Positions 5,916 through 20,449 of a DNA stretch of 20,449 nt are shown here, in pieces. The position numbers were made by a program, and so were the translations under genes. Source of the stretch: a virus. The notes beneath the pieces are model-generated. The model searched no databases. It was not told the DNA's origin and worked only from the letters and a program-made list of their open reading frames with translations. The DNA lies in the UHGV virus genome UHGV-0200630, one strand, 5' to 3'. Numbering within the stretch: position 1 is the stretch's first letter; the number at the start of each line of letters is the position of its first letter.

Positions 5916-6331
5916 TATTTTCTCCTGTTAAAAATTAATTCAAAATTAAAATCGTTGACGTTTATCAGTTGATATTTATTTTCATGTTCAACTAATGCTC
6001 TATTATTAAAAACGATAGATGCAACGTAATAGACACGGTTTTTATGTTTTTTCTTAATTAAGATAACCGAGCCTGTTTCTATAGTTTCTGATTTCTCAAG
6101 ATGCGTTTCACACGCTTCGAGAACGTTATTAAAACCAGTTAGCTCTTTGCAAATCTTGAGACCTTCAGGAATACTCGTGTATTTGTCTTTTAATTTGTCT
6201 GTGTATTCAGTAGCACAAACAAGGTCGATATATTCAGCAACAAGGATATTACAGTCGTTTTGACCGAAAACGTGTTGCTGATTGATATAGCGGTTAAGTA
6301 ATTTTGATAAGTCAGCTTGAAATTTAAACAT
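5915..6331 (-). CDS. Putative tail tip assembly protein with lambda gpK-like NlpC/P60 cysteine peptidase domain (138 aa)
   Basis: Immediately upstream of the J-like gene with TAATG coupling; GAGGTG SD. Motif FGQNDCNILVAEY resembles the Cys-containing motif of NlpC/P60 (lambda K C-terminal domain); later HxN/His candidates. Functional call is tentative. Confidence 0.55.
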   Translation of the reverse strand: MFKFQADLSKLLNRYINQQHVFGQNDCNILVAEYIDLVCATEYTDKLKDKYTSIPEGLKICKELTGFNNVLEACETHLEKSETIETGSVILIKKKHKNRVYYVASIVFNNRALVEHENKYQLINVNDFNFELIFNRRK

Positions 6332-6362
6332 GTTTCACCTCTGACTTTATTTAGAGCCAAAA

Positions 6363-6386
6363 AAAGACCCCTTGCGGAGTCTTTTT
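6363..6386. terminator. Bidirectional intrinsic terminator-like hairpin
   Basis: A-tract, imperfect GC stem (GACCCC/GGAGTC with TTGC loop), T5 on plus strand and U7 on minus strand; sits directly 3' of the 158-aa gene. Confidence 0.5.
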
Positions 6387-6388
6387 AA

Positions 6389-6865
6389 TTAATCACTTGA
6401 TGTCAAATCAACAACACCAGAAACAACAGGACCACCATCAACACTCAGTGTCATTGTCAGACCTTGAACTTCTGATTCACCGCCATTATGAACAGCGCTT
6501 GACAAGAAGCCGTTATAAACTTTTGCAACACCCAGTTTTTTAGTAGCATCAATCCAATAAACGATTTTAAACTGACCACGTTTACCATCTTCCGCAAGCT
6601 TAATCAGAACATCATGAACGCTTTCTGGAATATAGTTAACGGTCAAGTCGATATCAGGAACAGAGCCACGACCAACCAGTTTACGGGAGTATTTGTGAGA
6701 GAAGTTAGGAGCTGTAATAACTTCGCGTTCAATACCCGTAGAAGGGAATGCACCAGTTTCAGGAATTTCAACAAACTTTTCTGAATTCAGATCGGTGTTT
6801 GCAATTTCTGAGTTATAGAACACACTGACGTAAGAGCCAGCAAAAATATCAAATTTGTCTGCCAT
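6389..6865 (-). CDS. Putative abundant virion structural protein (158 aa), possibly tail tube/distal tail-like
   Basis: Isolated between two hairpins (6904-6926 and 6363-6386), suggesting separate high expression; AGGAAA SD. Gly/Val/Ser-rich sequence that I read as beta-rich. Family not recognised from sequence alone. Confidence 0.6.
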   Translation of the reverse strand: MADKFDIFAGSYVSVFYNSEIANTDLNSEKFVEIPETGAFPSTGIEREVITAPNFSHKYSRKLVGRGSVPDIDLTVNYIPESVHDVLIKLAEDGKRGQFKIVYWIDATKKLGVAKVYNGFLSSAVHNGGESEVQGLTMTLSVDGGPVVSGVVDLTSSD

Positions 6866-6926: not shown

Positions 6927-9900
6927 TTATTTAGCTTCAAGTTCTTTAACGCGAGCACTTAATTCCTTGATAGCATTAACCAGCAACGCGTTTACAGCAG
7001 CAGAGTTAACACCAAGAATTTCGTCAGGTCCGAAAGAACTAACAGCTTCTGGTAATACTTCTTTCAGTTCTTGAGCAATAATACCTGCTTCACGAACTTC
7101 GAATGAATATTCAGTTTTGACTAAATCAGATTTCTTATCGTATACGTAACCAGTAAGTTTCTCGACTTTATCAACTGCGTTTTCAATTTCTTCAAAGTTC
7201 GATTTCAGACGTTTATCAGAAGTGCTAACCCATTGGATCGCATTTGCTGTTCCATTACCGAGGAATAGATAGTCTGCACCACCAATGTGAAGTGCAGCCT
7301 CGGGAGCAGAACTACCCGGATTATAAATGTCCATCGCAGCACCGTATTCTGTGCCCCAATGAACATGTTTCCAGATATTAATACATTTATCACGAGTCTG
7401 AGCTTCAACAATCATTCCCGCAGGACGATCACGCCACGCTGACCACTGCGGCCAACCGTCAACGACACCTTGAATCATCGCATTGCTTGCCCCGGTTCTA
7501 ACGTTTCCAACATAAACACCGCGAGACTCATTATGGGTGTTAATCGTAATTGACCGATCAATTGTCAAACCAGCTGTGTTAAAGGTTGCGATTTGAATAC
7601 CATTAGTAAAAATGCTTAAGTTTCCGTCCGTAACTTGTCGAATACCTGTATCGTTATCACCAAACGCGATTGAGTTTCCACCTAGTACGTTGTCCGTGTT
7701 AATACCAAAACTTGTTAAACGATTTGTTTCAACAGAAGGAGTATTAATTTTTCCAGGAACAGCAAAACGACCATCGATATCAAATTCATAATTAGCCATT
7801 TTACCGAACGTCGATTCTTCTTTCGTCCCAACACGAAGAATTCCTTTGCCCCATGAATTAGCTGGTCCTCTAATAGTTCCTAATTCAACAACAGTAGAGA
7901 ATCCGTGTCCTACGGAAACAGAGTTCATCGAATATCCGGGATAATAATCACTTTCACCAGCAACTGCTCCGAAGTTAATCTGCATAGGAGCATTTTGTCT
8001 CCATTGATTAGCGTAAGCATGATCATTGGTTGCTGCCCATCTTGCACCATCAATTTGAATTGTATTATGCTGAATATCCATCGCGGTATTAGTACCAGTC
8101 TGAACCGTCACGGATCCGTTAGTTCTAAGAGTAACACCAGATGACGTAGAGAAATCATTTCTCATATTCTGAGACCAGACAATATCGAGATTCTCACTTG
8201 TCTTGCCAAGAATCCAGGTATTATTGCGACCGTCCATATTGCCAGACATATAACTTGCCTGATTCGACGCAGGAATATTCAACTGAATAGCATTAGATTC
8301 GCCGTTGACAGAAACACCACTTGCAAGATTCAATCGACCATTGGTGTTTAATGAACCCATCCAATATTCAGGAGTATCACCATGAAACCAACATATAGAG
8401 TTATCCAGCCTATCGTCAGGATGATTAGCCATTGCCAACTCATGATAAATGGATCCAGCACCAACGGCTCTAACTTTTCTTAAATGATTTGATTGTTGCT
8501 CAGGAGTGTTCCAGTCGGGTAAGCTTTCCGAGTCATACCATCCGTAAGGCTTATTATTATAAATCGTTTTATAGAAACTTGCAGGGCCAGCAACACCAAG
8601 ACCTTCTTTAGTATCAATATAAGTTCTGCCTGAACCTCTCAGATAATGATTATATTTTCCACCATTAACTAATCCGAAATAAGTCGTGGCGTCACCAATG
8701 TTATTACCGTCGGTTGTCGTATCGATATTAATTAATGAATAACCTTCAGGAGCCATCAGATTCGAATCACCATCATCACTTCTGAAACGGAAATGAGTTT
8801 TTCTATTAAAGTAGTTTTCAGATCCTGCAATAGAAGCTGTTACAACGTTATTTGAATAGAAGTTTAACCATCCGTCTTCTCTCCATTTAAAACCAGTGTC
8901 GGAATCACCAATCGCGATAGAGTTTAAACCCAGTGAATTTCCAACGGCAAAGTTGCTTGCAACGGACATTAAAGGAGTTGTTACTGCATCAGTGATTCTA
9001 GCTTGACCTGAAATATCAATTGACATTCCTCTGCCTGTTTTTCCCCAAGTCATGGTCATTAGATCTAATGCGTCGGTTCCTTCGTTAGCATCACGACGAA
9101 ATAACAGTCGATCATCCGTATCCGTTGCGTATGCAATTTGATGAATAGTCTTTGAAGTTCTGCCGTGGTTTTCAATACTCAGAACATCACCGTTATTACC
9201 AGCAGGTGTAACTTTCAAAGTTCCTGCGTATACATTACCAGCAGCATGAACAGAAGGAACAGTTAAGTCGCCAGTCATCGTGTCGCCAGCTTTATTAACT
9301 TTGGTGTCAATCATGTCTTTCAGAGTCTGATTATCAACAGTCAAACGGTCATTAACTGCTTTAATCTTTTCGTCAGCATCAGCTTTATTCGCATCAACTT
9401 TCGTATTAATAGCCGTGTCGTTCTGGTCAACTTTTGAATTCAGATTATCAACGCGAGTGTTAATAGCAGCGTCGTTAGCATCAACTTTCTGTTCGAGTTT
9501 CGTCAGGTCAGCACTTGAACCTGTTTGAACTTTGCTGATTTCAGAATCAACGTAATCTTTACGCGTAGCGCTATCAGGAGCAACAGGAGCAGCAGGCAAA
9601 GATAACTGACCATTACCGTTAAGCACGAAGTCAGAACTCTCTCCTGTAGCTTTTCCTTTCGCTACCGTAACACGAAGTTCACCTTTAGAGTCTGTCTGAG
9701 CAGGAGAACTAATACGTGCTTTTGCTTTGTCGTGTTCATCAGCAAAAACAATATCGCTTTTATCAAGATTTTTTAAAGTCAGATTAGAATCGGATTCAAT
9801 ATCACTTGCTTTAATTTTTCCAGTAAAGGTCTGACCGCCTTCAACAACAGCATCAGCACCATTACCGATGTTAATAACAGCGTCACCGAATTTAGTAAAA

Positions 9901-10022: not shown

Positions 10023-11048
10023 TTAAAATACTCCTGCGTCTAAGGTTTCTCCTAACGCTACACAATTAATCTCTAATGGCGTTGGTTTATTACTTGGAGA
10101 ATAGACTTCTTTGCCTTTGACCTTGACAGAAGTTGAGTTAATTTCATTACTATTTAGAGCCAAGATTTCACCTTGTGGCGCAGAAATCTTTTTACGAACG
10201 TTCAGATATTCCTGAATAGTCAAAGATCCTTTGAGTTCTCCACCAGTAATAGGCAAAGCATTAATATCTTCAGGAGTTGGACGTTCAAGTTCTGTATAGA
10301 CTTTGACCCACGGAGATTCAGTAACAGTTTCACCGCTTTGTTGTTTGTTTCTGATTCTGATGCTTGGATTACCGACTGACGAACCAATAAGCTCCCAACC
10401 TTGACCATCAGGATGCTGAATAGCCATAGCAGACGTGCCAGAGTTATAAGGGTTATCGCTGTTTGTTGCATCGACTGTTACACATCTGTTACCAGTTAAT
10501 AATCCTAAGTCTTTAACGCCTGCGATTTCTTCTGTACCAGCACCAATACCATAATCGCCAACGTTTAACGGAACTGAGAATTCAGCAAAACCTGTAAACA
10601 ACTGACCATCAGGAGAAAGATTAAAAGTTGTTGTAACGACTGAGTTAGCCGAACCTGATGTTTCTTTCTTCGTTACATAAGCATTAAAAATATGATAAAG
10701 ACCAGCATCATTATCTTTCTTTGTTTCTCCATCGATAACATAAAGACTTCTGAATCTAAGGAGTTTCTTTTCCATAAGAGCTTCATCAAGCAACTGATAA
10801 ACTGGGTCAGAACTGTCTTCAAATAAGCTTATTGAAGTGTCGTTAATTGTTACGTCACCTGAAAGTTTCGTTGTGAAATCGGTTCTGTAATCTTCTAGTG
10901 TCTGAACTTCTTTTCTAAATCCGATAACAGGGAATGCAGCCAGTTTATCAGTGCTTACATAACCTGGGTCGTTATATCCTGGGATTTCAACGATTAGCGG
11001 ATTAACTGAAACTCTGACGTTATTTCCTACAAAAATATCGTTTGTCAT
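10023..11048 (-). CDS. Virion structural protein (341 aa), possibly major tail or fiber-associated protein
   Basis: Long ORF in the structural block, 7 nt downstream of the preceding stop. N-terminal half has a pattern reminiscent of major tail proteins; C-terminal part (PTPEDINALPITGGELKGSLTI) resembles fiber attachment regions. Family unresolved. Confidence 0.65.
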   Translation of the reverse strand: MTNDIFVGNNVRVSVNPLIVEIPGYNDPGYVSTDKLAAFPVIGFRKEVQTLEDYRTDFTTKLSGDVTINDTSISLFEDSSDPVYQLLDEALMEKKLLRFRSLYVIDGETKKDNDAGLYHIFNAYVTKKETSGSANSVVTTTFNLSPDGQLFTGFAEFSVPLNVGDYGIGAGTEEIAGVKDLGLLTGNRCVTVDATNSDNPYNSGTSAMAIQHPDGQGWELIGSSVGNPSIRIRNKQQSGETVTESPWVKVYTELERPTPEDINALPITGGELKGSLTIQEYLNVRKKISAPQGEILALNSNEINSTSVKVKGKEVYSPSNKPTPLEINCVALGETLDAGVF

Positions 11049-15881: not shown

Positions 15882-17765
15882 TTATAATCCGAAACCACGA
15901 GGCTTATTAACTGGTCTGTTTCGTTTGATAATGTTTCGACGAGGTTCATGAGTTTGAATAACAGGAGAATTTGTTTCGTTTTGTTCTTCTGGCATTTCAA
16001 TATCAGATTTAGCAGCGAGTTTCCTCCACTCGTGAAATTTGATTTTCTCTAGAACTTGCAGACGCGCGCAATAACCGTAGTTAAAGCAGTCAAGACCTTC
16101 GTTACGAACACCGCCTTGTTTAATAACCCATCTAACAGTATTACCAGAGCGTTTTAATTCTTCGGACATAAGCTGTTCGCAGTAATCATCTGGAACATCA
16201 TCAGAGATTTCGACTCTGACTGGTGTATTTCCAGATTTCACGCTTCTGTTTAGCAGTTCACGAACTAAGTTTTTTCCTTGGTTTACACCAATCATATAAA
16301 GTTCATAACCACCGGTTTTCGTGATTTTCGTTGGAACATAAGGGGCATCAACAGAGCTGGCACCTTTAATTGCTTTCAGGTTTGTCCACTGAGAGCAGAA
16401 ACGATAGATTGTTTTAGTTGCTCGACCGTTTGAGCTATCGACGTTCACCCACGCTAAAGGAACCTTTCTTCCCAAAGCTGTTCTGAACGGTGCTTTAACG
16501 TATGCAAGAAGTTCTTTATAAGCAGGGGAATCGATAACCTCAGCGTTCATTGTCATAAAGCTACGATGTGCAAGAATATAAACGGTTCGTTCGTTGTGAC
16601 CCATCAAGGTTACTTCTAAACGGTCTTGCTGTTGGTCAACCCCAGCGGTTAAAAACAACGTGTCTTCTGGTATATTGCTGATGCCGATATTCGTCTTGAG
16701 TGTTTCTAATTTACTAACCTCAATGTCTTCGTTTAAATCATCAAACGGTAGACCAAGAACAGTGTTATAAAACGTTGACAAGCTGAACGTTTGCCATGCT
16801 TGCTTATAGTCTTCAACAACTGATTTGATAGAACTCATTGGGCTGTATAAACGACTTACGTGGAATCCAGCAATTCGACTTTCAGGTTGATGAATAATCC
16901 ATTCACCTTGTTTAATTGCTCGTGCTCGGTCGCCTTCAGAGAAAGCGTGATGACATTCAGGACATTCAATTCTGGCAGAGTTAGGATCAGGTAATGATTT
17001 ACCATCGATTTTTACCCAGTCGAATTTGATATTCTCCCACGTCAGTTCGTGCTTATGACCACATGTAGGACAGGGAACATGATACTTGCGCTTGTCGGAT
17101 GCTTCATACTGCGTGTGGATAGCACCGTATTTACTTGTAGGCGTCGAGCTAATGAAAACACGAGCGTCTTCACCGAACGTCGTAGCACGTTGTTCCGCGA
17201 TGATAATCGGGTTGCCTTCTTCTGTGTCTGTTTCAACTGCGTCAACTTCATCAAGCAACATCAGCGGAAGAGTTTTACCGCGTAAGTGAGAAGGGCTATT
17301 GAGCGACATGAAATACCAAAAGCCTCCAGCACGTAGCTGAATTTGACTGGTGTTATTCACTGCGTTTCTGTCGTTCTTGTCGGTGACGATTCGTTGCATT
17401 TCTTCCGATTCGTCAATCATTGGGCGAATCTTGCCTGATAGCCATTGAGTCGTCTCTTTACCGGTTGACTGCAAGACACCAGCGTTACCGGGATCAGTAG
17501 CAGACTTATAGAACAGAATTCCGTTCAAGATGGTTGTCTTGCCAATCTGGGCAGAAGTCTCGAAGACGATTTTCTTCTTACGTTCTTTAATGACGTCAAT
17601 CATGCCTTTCTGAAACTCAAACAGTTTCATCGGCTGCCCTGTATAAGGACCATCAGGGAATTTCAGGTACTGTTCGACCCACTCGGACGGAGTGTAGTCA
17701 GGAGGTGGCATTAAAAAGCGCTTTGCATTCTGTAAGATACTTTTCAGTTTATTTGAGTTTTTCAT
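15882..17765 (-). CDS. Terminase large subunit, lambda GpA family (627 aa)
   Basis: Walker A-like FETSAQIGKTT; zinc-ribbon-like CPTCGH...ECPECHH; LTAGVDQQQDRLEV and NEGLDCFNYGY match lambda gpA segments as I recall them. First gene of the leftward operon. Confidence 0.9.
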   Translation of the reverse strand: MKNSNKLKSILQNAKRFLMPPPDYTPSEWVEQYLKFPDGPYTGQPMKLFEFQKGMIDVIKERKKKIVFETSAQIGKTTILNGILFYKSATDPGNAGVLQSTGKETTQWLSGKIRPMIDESEEMQRIVTDKNDRNAVNNTSQIQLRAGGFWYFMSLNSPSHLRGKTLPLMLLDEVDAVETDTEEGNPIIIAEQRATTFGEDARVFISSTPTSKYGAIHTQYEASDKRKYHVPCPTCGHKHELTWENIKFDWVKIDGKSLPDPNSARIECPECHHAFSEGDRARAIKQGEWIIHQPESRIAGFHVSRLYSPMSSIKSVVEDYKQAWQTFSLSTFYNTVLGLPFDDLNEDIEVSKLETLKTNIGISNIPEDTLFLTAGVDQQQDRLEVTLMGHNERTVYILAHRSFMTMNAEVIDSPAYKELLAYVKAPFRTALGRKVPLAWVNVDSSNGRATKTIYRFCSQWTNLKAIKGASSVDAPYVPTKITKTGGYELYMIGVNQGKNLVRELLNRSVKSGNTPVRVEISDDVPDDYCEQLMSEELKRSGNTVRWVIKQGGVRNEGLDCFNYGYCARLQVLEKIKFHEWRKLAAKSDIEMPEEQNETNSPVIQTHEPRRNIIKRNRPVNKPRGFGL

Positions 17766-17910: not shown

Positions 17911-18345
17911 ATGAAAACTGAACTGACTGTTGAAAACCGAATTGCTTCTGAATTAAACGCTGGTACTGATATGTCAGAGAGTAAGCTTGCTGAAAAATAC
18001 GATGTTCCTCGTTCTATTGTTCGTCGTGTTAAAGCTAACATCGAGGAATATACAGTTGTTGAAGAAGTTAAAGCTGAAAATACGGTTGAAGTTGTCGATG
18101 CTGTTGAAGCACAACGAATCGTGAATCAGGCTTTCGGATTCGATAACATCGAAAAACTTCTTGCTAGCAAATCGGCTAATAAAAAACCATCTGCGATTAG
18201 CATGATTATTTTTAAACGTACAGAGGGGGATTTTGAGTTATTCAAAAAACAGATGTCAGACAAAACTGCCGCGTATCAGAGGGATCAGTTTCTTCGCTGT
18301 GTGAATAGCACTAAAGGAGAAATGAGTGAAACTGAGAATGCCTAA
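17911..18345 (+). CDS. Helix-turn-helix DNA-binding protein (144 aa), candidate early regulator or terminase small subunit-like protein
   Basis: ATG at 17911 preceded by AGGAGA (6-nt spacer); the ORF-track start at 17854 has no SD. N-terminal region (IASELNAGTDMSESKLAEKYDVPRSIVRRV) is HTH-like. Confidence 0.65.
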   Translation: MKTELTVENRIASELNAGTDMSESKLAEKYDVPRSIVRRVKANIEEYTVVEEVKAENTVEVVDAVEAQRIVNQAFGFDNIEKLLASKSANKKPSAISMIIFKRTEGDFELFKKQMSDKTAAYQRDQFLRCVNSTKGEMSETENA

Positions 18346-18763: not shown

Positions 18764-18768
18764 CAAAA

Positions 18769-18791
18769 GGGAGCTTAGTGCTCCCTTTTTT
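18769..18791 (+). terminator. Intrinsic terminator
   Basis: Stem GGGAGC (18769-18774) / GCTCCC (18780-18785), loop TTAGT, followed by T6 (18786-18791). Confidence 0.8.
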
Positions 18792-19164
18792 ATTGAATTT
18801 CAAATGAGTAGATTGTAAACCACAGATACTGGAGGCATCTTTGGGGCGCAAGGAATCAAATAGTTGAGAACTTGATTACTCAGTTCTTTAGAACGATCTG
18901 CAAACAGCAGGGCGTACTTCCTGCGAAGCTGAAAGCGTAGAGTCAAAAGCAATAAGGTCGATAACGAAGCAGGAAGCATCAGGTGAACTTGATAACAGGG
19001 AATTGACTTGGAGTATCATTAGGTCAGTAGAAGCAGGGAGAAGCGAGGAGGGATGATGTAGCAGTCAATCATTACTATCATCAAAGATAGGGCTTGCCCG
19101 TTCGACGTAGCGATAGCGAAGGAGAACTCATTAACGTTATTTCAATTAATTATCGATCGTTATG

Positions 19165-19193
19165 TTTATTGATTGTCAGACGAACAGTATAAT
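19165..19193 (+). promoter_or_regulatory. Candidate sigma70-like promoter (TTTATT-N17-TATAAT)
   Basis: Perfect -10 TATAAT at 19188-19193, weak -35 TTTATT at 19165-19170 with 17-bp spacer. Would direct rightward transcription through the mini-hairpin cluster. Confidence 0.25.
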
Positions 19194-19249
19194 GCAGTTA
19201 TCCAGTAATCATTATTATCCAGATCTGAAAAATAATATTGTGAGCGTAG

Positions 19250-19400
19250 CGAACGCGCGAAGCGCTAATAATCTTTATCTAGAAACATCTAATCAGTAGC
19301 TAGTAATCAAGTTCGATAGTGTTATCTGTCGCGCTTCGCGCTAATGTTTATCAATTAGGGCTTCGCCCGCGCTTCGCGCAATCTGCTCGCTTCGCTATGT
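19250..19400. repeat. Cluster of GCGAAGC / GCTTCGC mini-hairpin motifs
   Basis: Read directly: gcGCGAAGCgc at 19257-19267; gcGCTTCGCgc at 19331-19341; ggGCTTCGCcc and gcGCTTCGCgc at 19358-19379; GCTTCGC at about 19390-19396. Additional GCGAAGC at 18923-18929. Confidence 0.75.
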
Positions 19401-19498
19401 TTTCCAGGTTTTGTACTGCTTCTATATCCTTCCAGTTCATCTTTATCCAATTGTTCTTATAGGGCGATTTTTTCTAGGGTCCATGCACTTCTCCGAGT

Positions 19499-19542
19499 CG
19501 CATCGATGCGTTATCGATGCGTTTTGATGTGCATCAATGCAC
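19499..19542. repeat. Operator-like array: 12-bp palindrome, 2 exact tandem 11-bp repeats, 14-bp inverted repeat
   Basis: CGCATCGATGCG palindrome 19499-19510; ATCGATGCGTT at 19502-19512 and again at 19513-19523; GTGCAT-CA-ATGCAC at 19529-19542. Confidence 0.8.
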
Positions 19543-19728
19543 CTGCTTTTCACTAAATTATTTTTCGGACTTTGTTTACACTTTCGGTGAACTATATAAA
19601 TATTAGTATGAACACAGAGAGTTTCTTCTTCCTCGTTATTTTCTCTCGTTTGTTTACTACTGACTTTATCCGTCATAAAATAAGATATAAGCAATTAGCT
19701 TAGTTCATTTAAAAATTCCTTAAGTTTA

Positions 19729-19754
19729 AAGCACTCTTCGGAGTGCTTATTTTT
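19729..19754 (+). terminator. Intrinsic terminator / attenuator upstream of the right-end genes
   Basis: 8-bp stem AAGCACTC (19729-19736) / GAGTGCTT (19741-19748) with TTCG loop, followed by ATTTTT. Confidence 0.75.
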
Positions 19755-19778
19755 CAATTCAATAAAAAAGGCAACCCC

Positions 19779-19937
19779 ATGAAATTTATACCTAACAAAT
19801 TCGAAATTGAATCTCGCTTAGACTCTGGTGAGACATTTCAGCAAATTGCAGAATCTAAACAAATGAATAAAGCAACGATGTATAATGCTTGCAAAAAACG
19901 TAATATCAGAACTCAACCAATCAATAAAGGCAAATAA
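19779..19937 (+). CDS. Small helix-turn-helix protein (52 aa)
   Basis: ATG at 19779 with weak AAGG SD 8 nt upstream; the ORF-track start at 19743 is a GTG inside the terminator hairpin. SGETFQQIAESKQMNKATMYNACKK is HTH-like. Confidence 0.5.
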   Translation: MKFIPNKFEIESRLDSGETFQQIAESKQMNKATMYNACKKRNIRTQPINKGK

Positions 19938-20391
19938 ATTGAATTTCAAATTTGCAGTCTTCGAAAATCTAGACAGAACAGTTAAAGCAAGCCTGAACAG
20001 AAATATTATCAAAGTTAATAGAATGACCAATAACAAAAACAGCCTGAAAGCTCTTGTTAAAGCTATAGATATTCATCGTAATGTTCGAGCTAAGATGTTA
20101 CAGAAGATTGAAAATGCTGTGACTGTAAAAAATATGCATAGCTTCGAAATCGGTACGACCGAAGTTAATAATCTGCCTGCAATCGTTGCTTATACAACCG
20201 ATAATGCTGTTATCGTTGCTTGTGAAATTAACGGTAAAAAGAACTCGTGGAAAGCTTTCTGTTCAGATCTAAGAATGCAGAAGATCAAAGACACCGAGCA
20301 GTTTGTTCAGATGTATACTGGTGAATTTATTGAAATCATCGAAAGTATTGAATTTCCGACTGAGCAGAGACTAAATAGCTGCGCGGAATAG
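19885..20391 (+). CDS. Hypothetical protein (up to 168 aa; start ambiguous: ATG 19885, TTG 19939 or ATG 20023)
   Basis: Long ORF in the +1 frame relative to the 52-aa HTH ORF, overlapping it. None of the candidate starts has a strong SD. Stop codon TAG at 20389-20391 lies inside the right ITR. Family not recognised. Confidence 0.45.
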   Translation: MLAKNVISELNQSIKANKLNFKFAVFENLDRTVKASLNRNIIKVNRMTNNKNSLKALVKAIDIHRNVRAKMLQKIENAVTVKNMHSFEIGTTEVNNLPAIVAYTTDNAVIVACEINGKKNSWKAFCSDLRMQKIKDTEQFVQMYTGEFIEIIESIEFPTEQRLNSCAE

Positions 20392-20448
20392 TAGATCACT
20401 GAAAGGGAACTCAGCCCGGATTGTGCGATCTGATCAATCGCCAAACCA
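20371..20448. repeat. Right terminal inverted repeat (78 bp), reverse complement of 1-78
   Basis: Read directly; one extra base (a, 20449) beyond the repeat at the right end. Confidence 0.95.
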
Positions 20449-20449
20449 A

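What the first reader, a model, noticed from the sequence alone, without database searches (positions are those of the whole stretch)
19250..19400. Cluster of GCGAAGC/GCTTCGC mini-hairpin motifs
Five copies of the heptamer (one GCGAAGC and four GCTTCGC on the plus strand, so four GCGAAGC on the minus strand) occur within 150 bp, most embedded in longer GC palindromes (gcGCGAAGCgc, gcGCTTCGCgc). d(GCGAAGC) is known to form an exceptionally stable single-stranded DNA mini-hairpin and has been reported at replication origins of small phages. Clustering here suggests single-strand hairpin signals, for example priming or initiator recognition on a displaced strand.
Basis: partly seen in the sequence, partly recalled or inferred. 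Interest (0 to 1): 0.7.

Follow-up and report, generated by a model that had tools for sequence, protein, structure and literature searches.

The report
Two-armed DNA mini-hairpin array in prophage
A rare E. coli prophage family keeps, in a non-coding control region, two opposed groups of tiny GC hairpins with G-N-A loops, one group on each DNA strand; evolution preserves the hairpin shape rather than the sequence, so it is a real structural signal, perhaps for starting replication, but its job is unproven.

Summary
GCGAAGC occurs 7 times in the window (1.76 expected), five of them in 19257-19395. Counting the whole mini-hairpin class (GCGNAGC/GCGNNAGC) gives eight sites. Four lie on the minus strand (19333-19395) and four on the plus strand (18923-19263), switching strand at a 65-nt, 71% A+T spacer. 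The array sits in a ~950-nt non-coding block of a 34-kb prophage (E. coli, ybiT-ldtB), between operator-like palindromes and the gpA-type large terminase gene.

Relatives with 75-88% TerL identity keep the array. Stems covary (GCGC, GGGC, TGGC, GACGC, GTGGGC) while loops stay G-N-A or G-N-N-A. Relatives that cannot be aligned keep the same sense-then-antisense order. Class density is 13.3/kb in the blocks and 0.34/kb outside. So hairpin formation is under selection, on both strands.

What it does is not shown. My best guess (about 0.35) is single-stranded-DNA signals flanking an unwinding or priming site of a host-dependent origin. The element has no replication gene. RNA hairpins in leader transcripts are nearly as likely; a packaging site or a protein-binding array is less so. 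There is no Rfam family, plasmid copy or database annotation. It is a new variant of known mini-hairpin signals and moderately interesting.

The parts
19389..19395 (-). Arm 1, site 1: GCGAAGC, 2-bp stem only (aGCGAAGCg)
   Evidence: present in L020, L027 and L036, absent in L018 and L019
19369..19379 (-). Arm 1, site 2: GCGC-GAA-GCGC mini-hairpin
   Evidence: GACGC-GAA-GCGTC in L019
19358..19368 (-). Arm 1, site 3: GGGC-GAA-GCCC mini-hairpin, the best covariation case
   Evidence: TGGC-GAA-GCCA in L020, GCGC-GAA-GCGC in L036, GGGC-GTAA-GCCC in L019, GGGC-GTA-GCCC in L027; 100% paired, with 2 compensatory changes
19331..19341 (-). Arm 1, site 4: GCGC-GAA-GCGC mini-hairpin (GCGC-GTAA-GCGC in L018)
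19266..19330 (.). Spacer where the hairpin-bearing strand switches; 71% A+T; 48-134 nt in relatives; poorly conserved, with indels; carries 1-2 GATC (mostly TGATCA) in five relatives but none here
19255..19265 (+). Arm 2, first site: GCGC-GAA-GCGC on the plus strand; invariant context TTAGCGCTTCGCGC (TerL-sense) in all six alignable relatives
19244..19250 (+). Arm 2: GCGTAGC (GTA loop) on the plus strand; a second GCGAAGC at this position in L041
19110..19117 (+). Arm 2: GCGATAGC (GNNA loop) inside the near-invariant 38-mer 19089-19126
18923..18929 (+). Arm 2, outermost GCGAAGC, at the left edge of the conserved block
18925..19422 (.). Extent of the polarity rule: the GAAGC pentamer occurs 6 times on the plus strand left of the spacer and 5 times on the minus strand right of it, with no exception; the purine-rich strand switches at the spacer
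19032..19053 (+). Polypurine tract AGCAGGGAGAAGCGAGGAGGGA, invariant in L017, L018 and L020
19499..19542 (.). Three GCATCGATGC-like palindromes (centres 11 and 20 bp apart): operator-like or iteron-like sites beside arm 1
19456..19483 (-). Candidate promoter reading into arm 1 (TGGACC-16 nt-TATAAG on the minus strand). This is my own reading of the sequence; the scanner did not call it
   Evidence: sequence; CCCTATAAGAACAAT is conserved in 5 of 6 relatives
18765..18789 (.). GC hairpin with an A-run before it and a T-run after it: terminator of the 59-aa gene, possibly bidirectional; left limit of the non-coding region
   Evidence: (I12)
18927..19740 (.). Conserved non-coding block, co-inherited with the 52-aa HTH gene and the 226/246-aa gene to its right

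Best explanation
Shown: the cluster is one half of a conserved two-armed element about 500 nt long. Each arm carries several very short GC hairpins whose loops are G-N-A or G-N-N-A closed by a C:G pair, which is the d(GCGNAGC)/d(GCGNNAGC) 'mini-hairpin' class. In each arm the hairpins lie on the strand whose 3' end points to a central, moderately A+T-rich spacer. That same strand is purine-rich. The element lies in the non-coding control region of a 34-kb temperate prophage. It is next to operator-like palindromes and divergent promoter candidates, between a small-HTH/226-aa operon and the large terminase gene. Selection acts on the hairpin shape.

Inferred (my commitment): the hairpins act in single-stranded DNA. 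When the spacer region is opened, by an initiator bound at the adjacent palindromes and/or by transcription from the adjacent promoter, each exposed strand folds into nuclease- and SSB-resistant mini-hairpins. These mark where the host primosome (DnaG or PriA-type) starts outward DNA synthesis. This is the logic of G4-type single-strand initiation signals and of the opposed ssiA/ssiB pair of RSF1010. It would let a phage that encodes no replication protein use host enzymes. No step from 'opened' onward has been shown. The confidence given is for the functional commitment; the structural description alone I hold at about 0.85.
For: Enrichment: 7 heptamers against 1.76 expected. Class density is 13.3/kb in the blocks and 0.34/kb elsewhere in nine loci. 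There are 2-6 hairpins with stems of at least 4 bp per block against 0.07-0.23 in shuffles, at most 8/500 shuffles reaching the observed value in any locus and 0/500 in most.

Structure selected: stems differ (GCGC, GGGC, TGGC, GACGC, GTGGGC, TCCGCCC) while loops are GAA 28, GTA 6, GCA 5, GGA 2, GTAA 3, GATA 2, GTGA 2. In the six alignable relatives 94% of cells are paired against 87.6% in shuffles, with 5 compensatory pairs against 1.2 (0/500 for each). A 3-to-4-nt loop change at homologous sites rules out fixed half-site spacing.

Both strands: every class member obeys sense-then-antisense order in L017-L020, L027 and L036, and also in the non-alignable L039, L028, L035 and L022. GAAGC obeys it 11/11. 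The purine skew flips at the spacer in all block-sharing relatives. A function in one RNA would not select G-N-A loops on the opposite strand.

Loop repertoire: it matches the DNA mini-hairpin class, including non-GNRA tetraloops (GATA, GTCA in L020) (PMC13037366).

Context: there is no replication gene in the whole 34-kb element. Operator- or iteron-like repeats lie beside the array. The block is co-inherited as a module with the two neighbouring genes. GATC is clustered in the block of five relatives, 4-9 against about 1 expected. L041 carries the module twice in tandem, which an origin or regulatory element tolerates better than a cos site.

Precedents: mini-hairpins at G4/St-1/alpha3 complementary-strand origins and in RSF1010 ssiA.
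Against: There is no direct evidence of single-stranded DNA or of initiation here. No DnaA boxes are present. The spacer is only 58-72% A+T against about 61% genome-wide. GATC clustering is absent in the window's own lineage and in the distant relatives. No initiator has been identified: the 226/246-aa neighbour has no family, PDB or usable fold assignment. The block never occurs on plasmids. Nearest-neighbour energies of the hairpins are modest and not better than shuffles, although these parameters lack the mini-hairpin bonus. The purine-rich-strand pattern is the one expected for two convergent transcription units, so an RNA reading fits it equally well. Across IMG/VR, bipartite GAA-hairpin arrays occur equally often in the opposite polarity, 15 against 15, so the polarity is not a general rule. 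The prophage copies seen in complete E. coli genomes carry IS insertions and may be defective.
Confidence: 0.35

Rival explanations
1. RNA hairpins in leader transcripts. The minus-strand arm lies just downstream of a candidate promoter with adjacent operators, in the 5' leader that reads towards (HNH and) the large terminase. The plus-strand arm lies in read-through RNA from the GntR-like/59-aa operon. The hairpins would act as nut/put-like antitermination sites, protein-binding sites or RNA-stabilising sites, each group ahead of a terminator in its own direction.
For: A candidate promoter TGGACC-16-TATAAG lies 60 nt upstream of arm 1, with CCCTATAAGAACAAT conserved in 5 of 6 relatives. Operator-like palindromes lie just upstream of it. 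Each arm is purine-rich on its hairpin strand, as mRNA-sense strands usually are. Terminators lie downstream of each arm in its own direction (18765-18789; 19729-19748). In L022, L039 and L041 the array lies directly upstream of HNH/TerL with no opposed gene between. A homing-endonuclease gene sits in the TerL-sense direction right after the block in four relatives. GTAA variants are good GNRA tetraloops.
Against: Triloops closed by C:G dominate, whereas typical selected RNA hairpins use GNRA or UNCG tetraloops. GATA and GTCA are not GNRA. The middle loop base varies freely, which is unlike a protein-recognised boxB loop. No boxA and no N-like or Q-like protein was found. No Rfam family matches, even at permissive thresholds. 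RNAalifold finds no covarying structure beyond the mini-hairpins themselves. No promoter for the plus-strand arm is conserved, and promoter/terminator scans are not above shuffles. L041's alternating S,S|A,A|S,S|A,A pattern is awkward for two convergent transcripts.
Confidence: 0.25
2. Packaging site. The block is the cos (or an accessory packaging signal) of this gpA/Nu1-type terminase, with repeated terminase or HTH-protein binding sites on both sides of a central cleavage region, as in SPP1 pacL/pacC/pacR or P1 pac.
For: The block lies 1.5-4 kb upstream of TerL here and only 0.3-1.2 kb upstream in L041, L028, L035 and L022, next to an HNH endonuclease in L022 and L039. It is flanked on both sides by variable cargo (retron, TIR protein, lipoproteins, homing endonuclease), as genome ends often are. 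TGATCA motifs in the spacer of five relatives recall P1 pac. If a cut fell in the spacer, the hairpins would lie on the 3'-ending strands, as in Streptomyces telomeres.
Against: The spacer is the least conserved part, with large indels and no GC-rich cosN-like core. The Nu1-like TerS has its own conserved ~185-nt upstream non-coding stretch that ends abruptly, matching the lambda layout of cosN about 190 nt upstream of Nu1 (the lambda layout is from my own knowledge). The module is tandemly duplicated in L041. Stem covariation and the change in loop length are not expected for duplex protein-binding sites. No viral contig ends at the block.
Confidence: 0.1
3. Duplex protein-binding array. The palindromic GC boxes are binding sites in double-stranded DNA for one of the adjacent HTH proteins (the 52-aa, GntR-like 144-aa or 226-aa protein). 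They would form a repressor or nucleoprotein complex over the control region, and the hairpin potential would be a by-product of dyad-symmetric sites.
For: Two HTH genes flank the block, and the block is co-inherited with the 52-aa/226-aa pair. The sites are short GC palindromes in an AT-rich background, arranged in opposed groups, like many operator or centromere-like arrays.
Against: Different sites within one genome have different half-site sequences, yet each stays self-complementary (GCGC, GGGC, TGGC, GACGC). The central spacing changes from 3 to 4 nt at homologous sites. The asymmetric centre (GAA versus TTC) is strand-consistent within each arm, and a symmetric dimer would not care about that. 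Two sites abut with 11-nt spacing.
Confidence: 0.12
4. No present function. The pattern would be the decaying trace of an old inverted duplication of a GC-rich repeat, or of selfish mini-palindromes.
For: Arm 2 resembles an inverted copy of sites 2-3 plus TAAT (I4, I8, I9). The known prophage copies carry IS elements. Bipartite arrays of either polarity are scattered in unrelated viral contigs.
Against: The block is better conserved than the neighbouring genes: 82% column identity, with long invariant runs. Compensatory changes occur in the stems. The same architecture recurs, with unrelated sequence, in L022, L028, L039 and L041. It is single-copy per genome, so it is not a spreading repeat.
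Confidence: 0.05

Closest known systems
DNA mini-hairpins d(GCGAAGC)/d(GCGNAGC)/d(GCGNNAGC) (Hirao and colleagues; review PMC13037366)
   Same: The core sequence class is identical: a GC stem, a loop closed by a sheared G:A pair and a free middle base. GAA, which I recall as the most stable member of the class, is by far the commonest loop here (28 of 48).
   Different: The known natural examples are single sites. Here 7-9 sites form a conserved two-armed array in a temperate dsDNA prophage. Folding in vivo has not been shown.
Single-strand initiation signals: the G4/St-1/alpha3 complementary-strand origin, and the ssiA/ssiB pair of RSF1010 oriV
   Same: Mini-hairpin-containing stem-loops on single-stranded template. 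In RSF1010 there are two signals on opposite strands beside iterons and an AT-rich segment (the RSF1010 layout is partly from my own knowledge; ssiA's CCGAAGG hairpin is). The geometry here fits outward leading-strand priming.
   Different: There is no dedicated primase, helicase or initiator gene (RSF1010 needs RepA, RepB' and RepC). The hairpins are many and minimal rather than one 40-nt signal. The phage genome is double-stranded. There are no experimental data.
Streptomyces archetypal telomeres (PMC5449611)
   Same: Several tightly packed palindromes with GNA loops closed by a sheared G:A pair, on the 3'-ending strand of both ends. Joined end to end they would give exactly this sense-then-antisense layout.
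   Different: Those are the ends of linear replicons capped by the terminal proteins Tpg/Tap. Here the array is internal to an integrated prophage, there are no Tap/Tpg genes, and the stems are only 2-7 bp.
Phage N4 virion-RNA-polymerase hairpin promoters
   Same: A DNA hairpin with a GC stem and a 3-nt G-purine-A loop (GGA/GAA) that is used as a signal in extruded single-stranded form.
   Different: No N4-type vRNAP gene is present. N4 has three co-oriented promoters at a genome end, not opposed arrays.
Lambda nut boxB / lambdoid antitermination hairpins
   Same: Short GC-stem hairpins with purine-rich G...A loops downstream of an early promoter in a temperate enterobacterial phage (my own knowledge).
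   Different: BoxB has a 5-nt loop, a single copy per nut site, an adjacent boxA and a cognate N protein. Here the loops are 3-4 nt, half of the sites are on the other strand, and there is no boxA or N-like protein.

Membership tests
DNA mini-hairpin motif class d(GCGNAGC)/d(GCGNNAGC) | Sequence GC-G-N(N)-A-GC, with a C:G pair closing the loop | tested here: met
   Eight sites in window 18923-19395. Blocks of nine loci hold 13.3/kb against 0.34/kb outside.
DNA mini-hairpin motif class d(GCGNAGC)/d(GCGNNAGC) | Actually folds as an unusually stable hairpin in single-stranded DNA | not testable with these tools
   ViennaRNA DNA parameters give only -2.4 to -3.2 kcal/mol and lack the special loop bonus. 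Melting or nuclease assays are needed.
Primase-dependent single-strand initiation signal (G4 type) | Directs primer synthesis on SSB-coated single-stranded template | not testable with these tools
   Only the motif resemblance and the strand geometry could be examined.
RSF1010-type oriV | Two ssi signals on opposite strands next to iterons and an AT-rich segment | tested here: inconclusive
   Opposed hairpin arms flank a 71% A+T spacer, and three palindromes lie about 100 nt away. There is no sequence similarity to ssiA/ssiB, and the iteron identity is unproven.
RSF1010-type oriV | Element-encoded primase, helicase and initiator (RepB', RepA, RepC) | tested here: not met
   No such gene in the 34-kb element by PHROGs, Pfam or RefSeq annotation.
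DnaA-dependent enterobacterial origin | Cluster of DnaA boxes beside an AT-rich unwinding element | tested here: not met
   0-2 boxes with at most 1 mismatch per 700-nt block, equal to background.
Lambda-type cos | Lies immediately upstream of the Nu1-type small terminase gene, with a conserved nicking core | tested here: not met
   The block is about 3.5 kb from TerS, with opposed genes between. A separate conserved ~185-nt stretch precedes TerS. The spacer core is variable.
Lambda nut (boxA-boxB) | 5-nt GNRA-like loop, boxA, cognate N protein, all sites on the transcribed strand | tested here: not met
   Loops are 3-4 nt, sites lie on both strands, and no N-like protein was found.
Streptomyces-type telomere | GNA-loop palindromes on the 3'-ending strands | tested here: met
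   The strand rule holds relative to the spacer.
Streptomyces-type telomere | Located at the ends of a linear replicon with terminal-protein genes | tested here: not met
   The array is internal to an integrated prophage, and there are no Tap/Tpg-like genes.
Any Rfam RNA family | Covariance-model match | tested here: not met
   No hit at gathering score. Only terminator-like sub-threshold hits away from the array.
REP/BIME-type dispersed palindromes | Many copies per host genome | tested here: not met
   One copy per genome, in 6 of 5426 complete E. coli genomes.

The most novel reading that the evidence does not exclude
A temperate tailed phage family that encodes no replication protein uses a protein-free origin. 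Transcription or a small HTH protein opens a spacer, and two opposed arrays of DNA mini-hairpins on the exposed strands recruit the host primosome for outward synthesis. This would be a dsDNA-phage counterpart of G4-type ssi signals and the first case where arrays of d(GCGNAGC) mini-hairpins are the selected functional unit. The unrelated bipartite arrays seen in other viral contigs would then be members of a wider, undescribed class of structural DNA signals.
Probability: 0.25. Interest if true: 0.75.

Novelty: new variant of a known kind. Interest (0 to 1): 0.58.

Why it matters
DNA mini-hairpins are well known to chemists, but they have few documented biological roles, and all of those are single sites. 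This is a natural case where comparative data show selection for the fold itself, repeated many times and arranged with strand symmetry, in an E. coli prophage that can be manipulated genetically. If the array is an origin or priming signal, it would explain how a 34-kb phage with no replication genes copies itself. It would also give a tractable system for studying non-B DNA signals in vivo. If it acts in RNA, it would instead define a new kind of leader element. Either way, the block is a compact, testable, unannotated control element sitting between two hotspots for defence cargo.

Tried and rejected
- **Rfam:** no family at gathering or permissive thresholds.
- **tRNA/tmRNA:** none found.
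- **Similar DNA:** none in known phages or plasmids.
- **Species-representative genomes:** no hit with TerL or with an invariant 25-mer.
- **Small conserved ORF across arm 1:** rejected. The length and the frame through the hairpins differ between relatives (my reading).
- **The 65-aa minus-strand ORF upstream of TerL:** rejected in favour of the conserved 144-aa GntR-like gene on the plus strand.
- **Long-range RNA/DNA helix between site 4 and the plus-strand site:** predicted, but without covariation and broken in 2 of 6 sequences.
- **226/246-aa neighbour:** no Pfam, PDB or PADLOC assignment. The AlphaFold model is too poor (pLDDT 48), so no fold search was run.
- **Retron link:** rejected. 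The RT is cargo present only in the window's lineage.
- **DnaA boxes:** absent. GATC clustering is seen in only part of the family.
- **Flanking genes of unrelated arrays (L104, L202, L315, L345, L352):** uninformative.
- **Promoter/terminator scans in the window and three relatives:** not above shuffles.
- **21-nt inverted repeat flanking the non-coding region (18784-18804 / 19751-19771):** the right arm differs in the relatives in my reading and the left arm lies outside the conserved block, so I did not pursue it.
Full report
**1. The observation**

GCGAAGC occurs seven times in the window on both strands, against 1.76 +/- 1.26 expected. None of 100 dinucleotide-preserving shuffles reached seven. 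Three minus-strand copies and the plus-strand copy are extended to 4-bp stems: GCGC-GAA-GCGC three times and GGGC-GAA-GCCC once. Of six C(GNA/GNNA)G hairpins with stems of at least 4 bp in the whole window, four are in this 125-nt stretch.

**2. Where it is**

The window is the reverse complement of most of a viral contig, IMGVR_UViG_3300045988_152555. The same element is a 34.2-kb prophage between ybiT and ldtB in E. coli MS 115-1 and 2021CK-01361. Related proteins occur in Kluyvera, Enterobacter and Citrobacter.

- **Minus strand:** a gpA-type large terminase (15882-17765), portal, protease-capsid fusion and tail genes.
- **Plus strand:** a conserved GntR-like 144-aa HTH gene (17911-18345), then a 59-aa gene and a terminator hairpin (18765-18789). 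A non-coding stretch of about 950 nt follows. After it come a promoter/terminator pair (19653-19748), a 52-aa HTH gene (19779-19937) and a 226/246-aa gene.
- **Window end:** in the window the 226/246-aa gene is cut at 20376 by the end of an IS630-family ISEc33.
- **Beyond the window:** other copies carry a retron Ec67-family (type I-C) RT-Toprim, a Nu1-like small terminase, a TIR protein, a lysozyme and a large serine recombinase.

No replication gene was recognised anywhere in the element; the last unassigned large gene is the tape measure. RefSeq annotates nothing under the block. Rfam has no match. No known phage or plasmid has similar DNA.

**3. Conservation**

TerL-anchored searches gave relatives with 62-88% TerL identity. 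The non-coding block, together with the two genes to its right, is conserved as one module in L018, L019, L020, L027 and L036. Column identity is 82% in the four closest sequences, with invariant runs of 20-35 nt. The DNA on either side is variable cargo: the retron, a NUMOD3 homing endonuclease, a Cor-like lipoprotein, a YadA-like adhesin and an antirepressor. The heptamer cluster is present in all of these relatives.

**4. It is a hairpin, and there are two arms**

At homologous positions the relatives change the stem and keep the pairing. Site 3 is GGGC-GAA-GCCC in the window, TGGC-GAA-GCCA in L020, GCGC-GAA-GCGC in L036, GGGC-GTAA-GCCC in L019 and GGGC-GTA-GCCC in L027. Site 4 is GCGC-GTAA-GCGC in L018. 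Site 2 is GACGC-GAA-GCGTC in L019.

On the six-sequence alignment, the local-hairpin structure has 94% of cells paired against 87.6% in shuffles. It has five pairs with compensatory double changes against 1.2 expected; 0/500 shuffles reach either value, and slid controls collapse. RNAalifold's alternative pairs the two arms with each other, but that pairing shows no covariation and is broken in two sequences.

Over ten loci the loops are GAA 28, GTA 6, GCA 5, GGA 2, GTAA 3, GATA 2 and GTGA 2. The first G and the last A are fixed, and the middle is free. This is the definition of the d(GCGNAGC)/d(GCGNNAGC) mini-hairpin class (PMC13037366). The change from 3-nt to 4-nt loops at one site argues against a dimeric duplex-binding site with fixed half-site spacing.

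The window has four sites on the minus strand (19333-19395) and four on the plus strand: 18923 GCGAAGC, 19110 GCGATAGC, 19244 GCGTAGC and 19257 GCGAAGC. The strand switches at a 65-nt spacer (19266-19330, 71% A+T).

In TerL orientation every block-sharing relative has the same order, a sense group followed by an antisense group. So do L039, L028, L035 and L022, which BLAST could not align to the window's block. L041 has the module twice in tandem.

- **Hairpin counts:** hairpins with stems of at least 4 bp number 2-6 per block against 0.07-0.23 in shuffles. Sense sites precede antisense sites in all pairs except within L041's duplication and one pair in L027.
- **Density:** the class density is 13.3/kb in the blocks and 0.34/kb elsewhere.
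- **GAAGC core:** the shorter core obeys the rule 11 times out of 11 over 18925-19422.
- **Purine skew:** the purine-rich strand switches at the spacer in all block-sharing relatives. The purine fraction of the sense strand is 0.60-0.67 before the spacer and 0.27-0.48 after it.

**5. What the geometry allows**

The hairpin-bearing strand of each arm is the one whose 3' end points to the spacer. That strand has three possible identities:

- the leading-strand template for forks leaving the spacer;
- the 3'-ending strand if the DNA were cut in the spacer;
- the sense strand of two transcripts converging on the spacer.

Geometry alone does not choose between these.

**6. Weighing the readings**

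*Single-stranded DNA at an origin (my choice, about 0.35).* The following points favour it:

- G-N-A loops are maintained on both strands.
- The loop repertoire is that of DNA mini-hairpins, including tetraloops that are not GNRA.
- The element lacks replication genes, so it must rely on host enzymes.
- Operator- or iteron-like repeats lie beside the array: three GCATCGATGC-like palindromes here, and three 21-nt direct repeats in L022.
- The block is inherited as a specificity module with its two neighbouring genes.
- Five relatives cluster GATC in the block.
- Mini-hairpins are already known at primase-dependent origins of G4-type phages and in RSF1010 ssiA.

Against it:

- There are no DnaA boxes.
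- The spacer is only mildly AT-rich.
- GATC clustering is absent from the window's lineage.
- No initiator could be identified.
- The block is never on plasmids.

*RNA hairpins in leaders (about 0.25).* A plausible promoter (TGGACC-16-TATAAG, my own reading of the sequence) with conserved -10 context lies 60 nt upstream of arm 1. Terminators lie downstream of each arm in its own direction. The purine skew is what convergent transcription units would show. In distant relatives the array is simply the region upstream of HNH/TerL.

Against it, the loops are not typical RNA motifs and the middle base is free. Half of the G-N-A loops would be U-N-C in any single transcript. No boxA or antiterminator is evident. 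Nothing beyond the mini-hairpins covaries.

*Packaging site (about 0.1).* The neighbourhood (terminase, HNH, cargo hotspots) is suggestive. However, the spacer is the least conserved part. The Nu1-like TerS has its own abruptly bounded ~185-nt conserved upstream region, which matches the lambda cos-Nu1 layout as I know it. L041 also duplicates the module.

*Duplex protein sites (about 0.12) and a non-functional relic (about 0.05).* The within-site covariation, the change in loop length, the strand consistency and the recurrence of the architecture without sequence similarity argue against both.

**7. Comparison with what is known**

The core motif is a member of the DNA mini-hairpin class; that is tested and met at the sequence level. 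The architecture resembles three known systems without being a member of any:

- **RSF1010 oriV** has opposed ssi signals, but the element here has no RepA/B'/C genes.
- **Streptomyces telomeres** have GNA-loop palindromes on the 3' strands of both ends (PMC5449611), but the array here is internal and there are no terminal-protein genes.
- **N4 hairpin promoters** use a similar hairpin, but there is no vRNAP gene here.

It is also not a lambda cos, a nut site, a DnaA origin, a REP element or any Rfam family.

**8. Wider survey**

Tight triples of the heptamer occur in more than 120 other viral contigs. Most are coding or simple tandem repeats. Some are bipartite arrays in non-coding DNA of unrelated phages:

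- L104, from a 67% GC phage, has 3-4 sense and 3-5 antisense GAA/GGA hairpins with long varied stems.
- L345 has a spacer of 12% GC.
- L352 has the heptamer inside five 23-nt iteron-like repeats.
- L315 and L202 are further examples.

Both polarities are equally common among rich arrays, 15 against 15. The order seen here is therefore a family trait and not a universal rule. The flanking genes of these other arrays gave no functional hint.

**9. Verdict**

The single-strand hairpin reading is supported as far as sequence comparison can go. The replication role is a reasonable but unproven inference, with an RNA-level role close behind. I rate it a new variant of a known kind of signal, and moderately to fairly interesting. 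It offers a genetically tractable natural system for DNA mini-hairpins and a candidate explanation for how a replication-gene-less prophage family copies or controls itself.

Noticed in passing
window 20377-20449: The last 73 nt are the end of an IS630-family ISEc33 copy. This sequence is multi-copy in 1144 of 5426 E. coli genomes. It interrupts the 226/246-aa ORF, which is intact in L001 and E. coli MS 115-1.
   Followed up: yes
L001 941-2710 (-), about 0.9 kb beyond the window's 3' end; L043 14191-15945: A retron Ec67-family / type I-C RT-Toprim (589 aa) with a 430-nt upstream gap, presumably msr-msd. It is present only in the window's lineage, so it is cargo.
   Followed up: partly
window 19653-19757 (+): A promoter-like site (TTTACT-17-TAAAAT) is followed within about 45 nt by a strong terminator whose stem covaries in relatives. 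This is either a ~70-nt small RNA or a leader terminator in front of the 52-aa HTH gene. There is a weak sub-threshold Rfam resemblance to TarB.
   Followed up: partly
window 19499-19542: Three GCATCGATGC-like palindromes with centres 11 and 20 bp apart lie between divergent promoter candidates. At the same place L006/L022 has three 21-nt direct repeats, GAAATGCAATTTCTGAACC. These are operator or iteron candidates.
   Followed up: partly
L012 5970-6158 (upstream of TerS, outside the window): About 185 nt of conserved non-coding DNA end abruptly upstream of the Nu1-like small terminase gene. This is the best cos candidate, by analogy with lambda.
   Followed up: partly
whole element (L043 7118-41012): TerS and TerL are separated by a 5.5-kb block of opposite orientation in every relative. 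The tape measure gene is at one prophage end, while the Dit and DUF2163 tail genes lie inverted at the other end beside the serine recombinase. No replication genes were found.
   Followed up: partly
L012 4925-5821; L043 11929-12825: A TIR-domain protein (PF10137, CAP12/Pycsar effector type) is embedded between the lysozyme and TerS genes.
   Followed up: no
L036 3477-4082, L019 4513-5118, L027 3601-4206, L396 8243-8857: A NUMOD3 homing-endonuclease gene lies immediately TerL-side of the block in four relatives. A remnant of it is visible in L002 4751-5002.
   Followed up: partly
blocks of L018, L019, L020, L027, L036: GATC is rare in these phages (1.66/kb), but 4-9 copies, mostly TGATCA, sit within +/-350 nt of the spacer. 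This is not so in the window's lineage or in L022, L028, L039 and L041.
   Followed up: partly
window 19032-19053 (+): The polypurine tract AGCAGGGAGAAGCGAGGAGGGA is invariant in L017, L018 and L020. It is part of the purine-rich plus-strand arm.
   Followed up: no
L104 2195-2437; L202 ~1500-2100; L345 ~10400-10800; L352 ~5990-6400; L315 ~7950-8400: Unrelated viral contigs, from 26% to 67% GC, carry bipartite GAA/GTA/GGA mini-hairpin arrays around AT-rich centres, in either polarity. This may be a wider class of structural DNA signals.
   Followed up: partly
window 18784-18804 and 19751-19771: A 21-nt inverted repeat (90% complementary) brackets the whole non-coding region, just outside the two terminators. 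The right arm is altered in relatives L002 and L004 in the alignment; the left arm lies outside the conserved block.
   Followed up: partly
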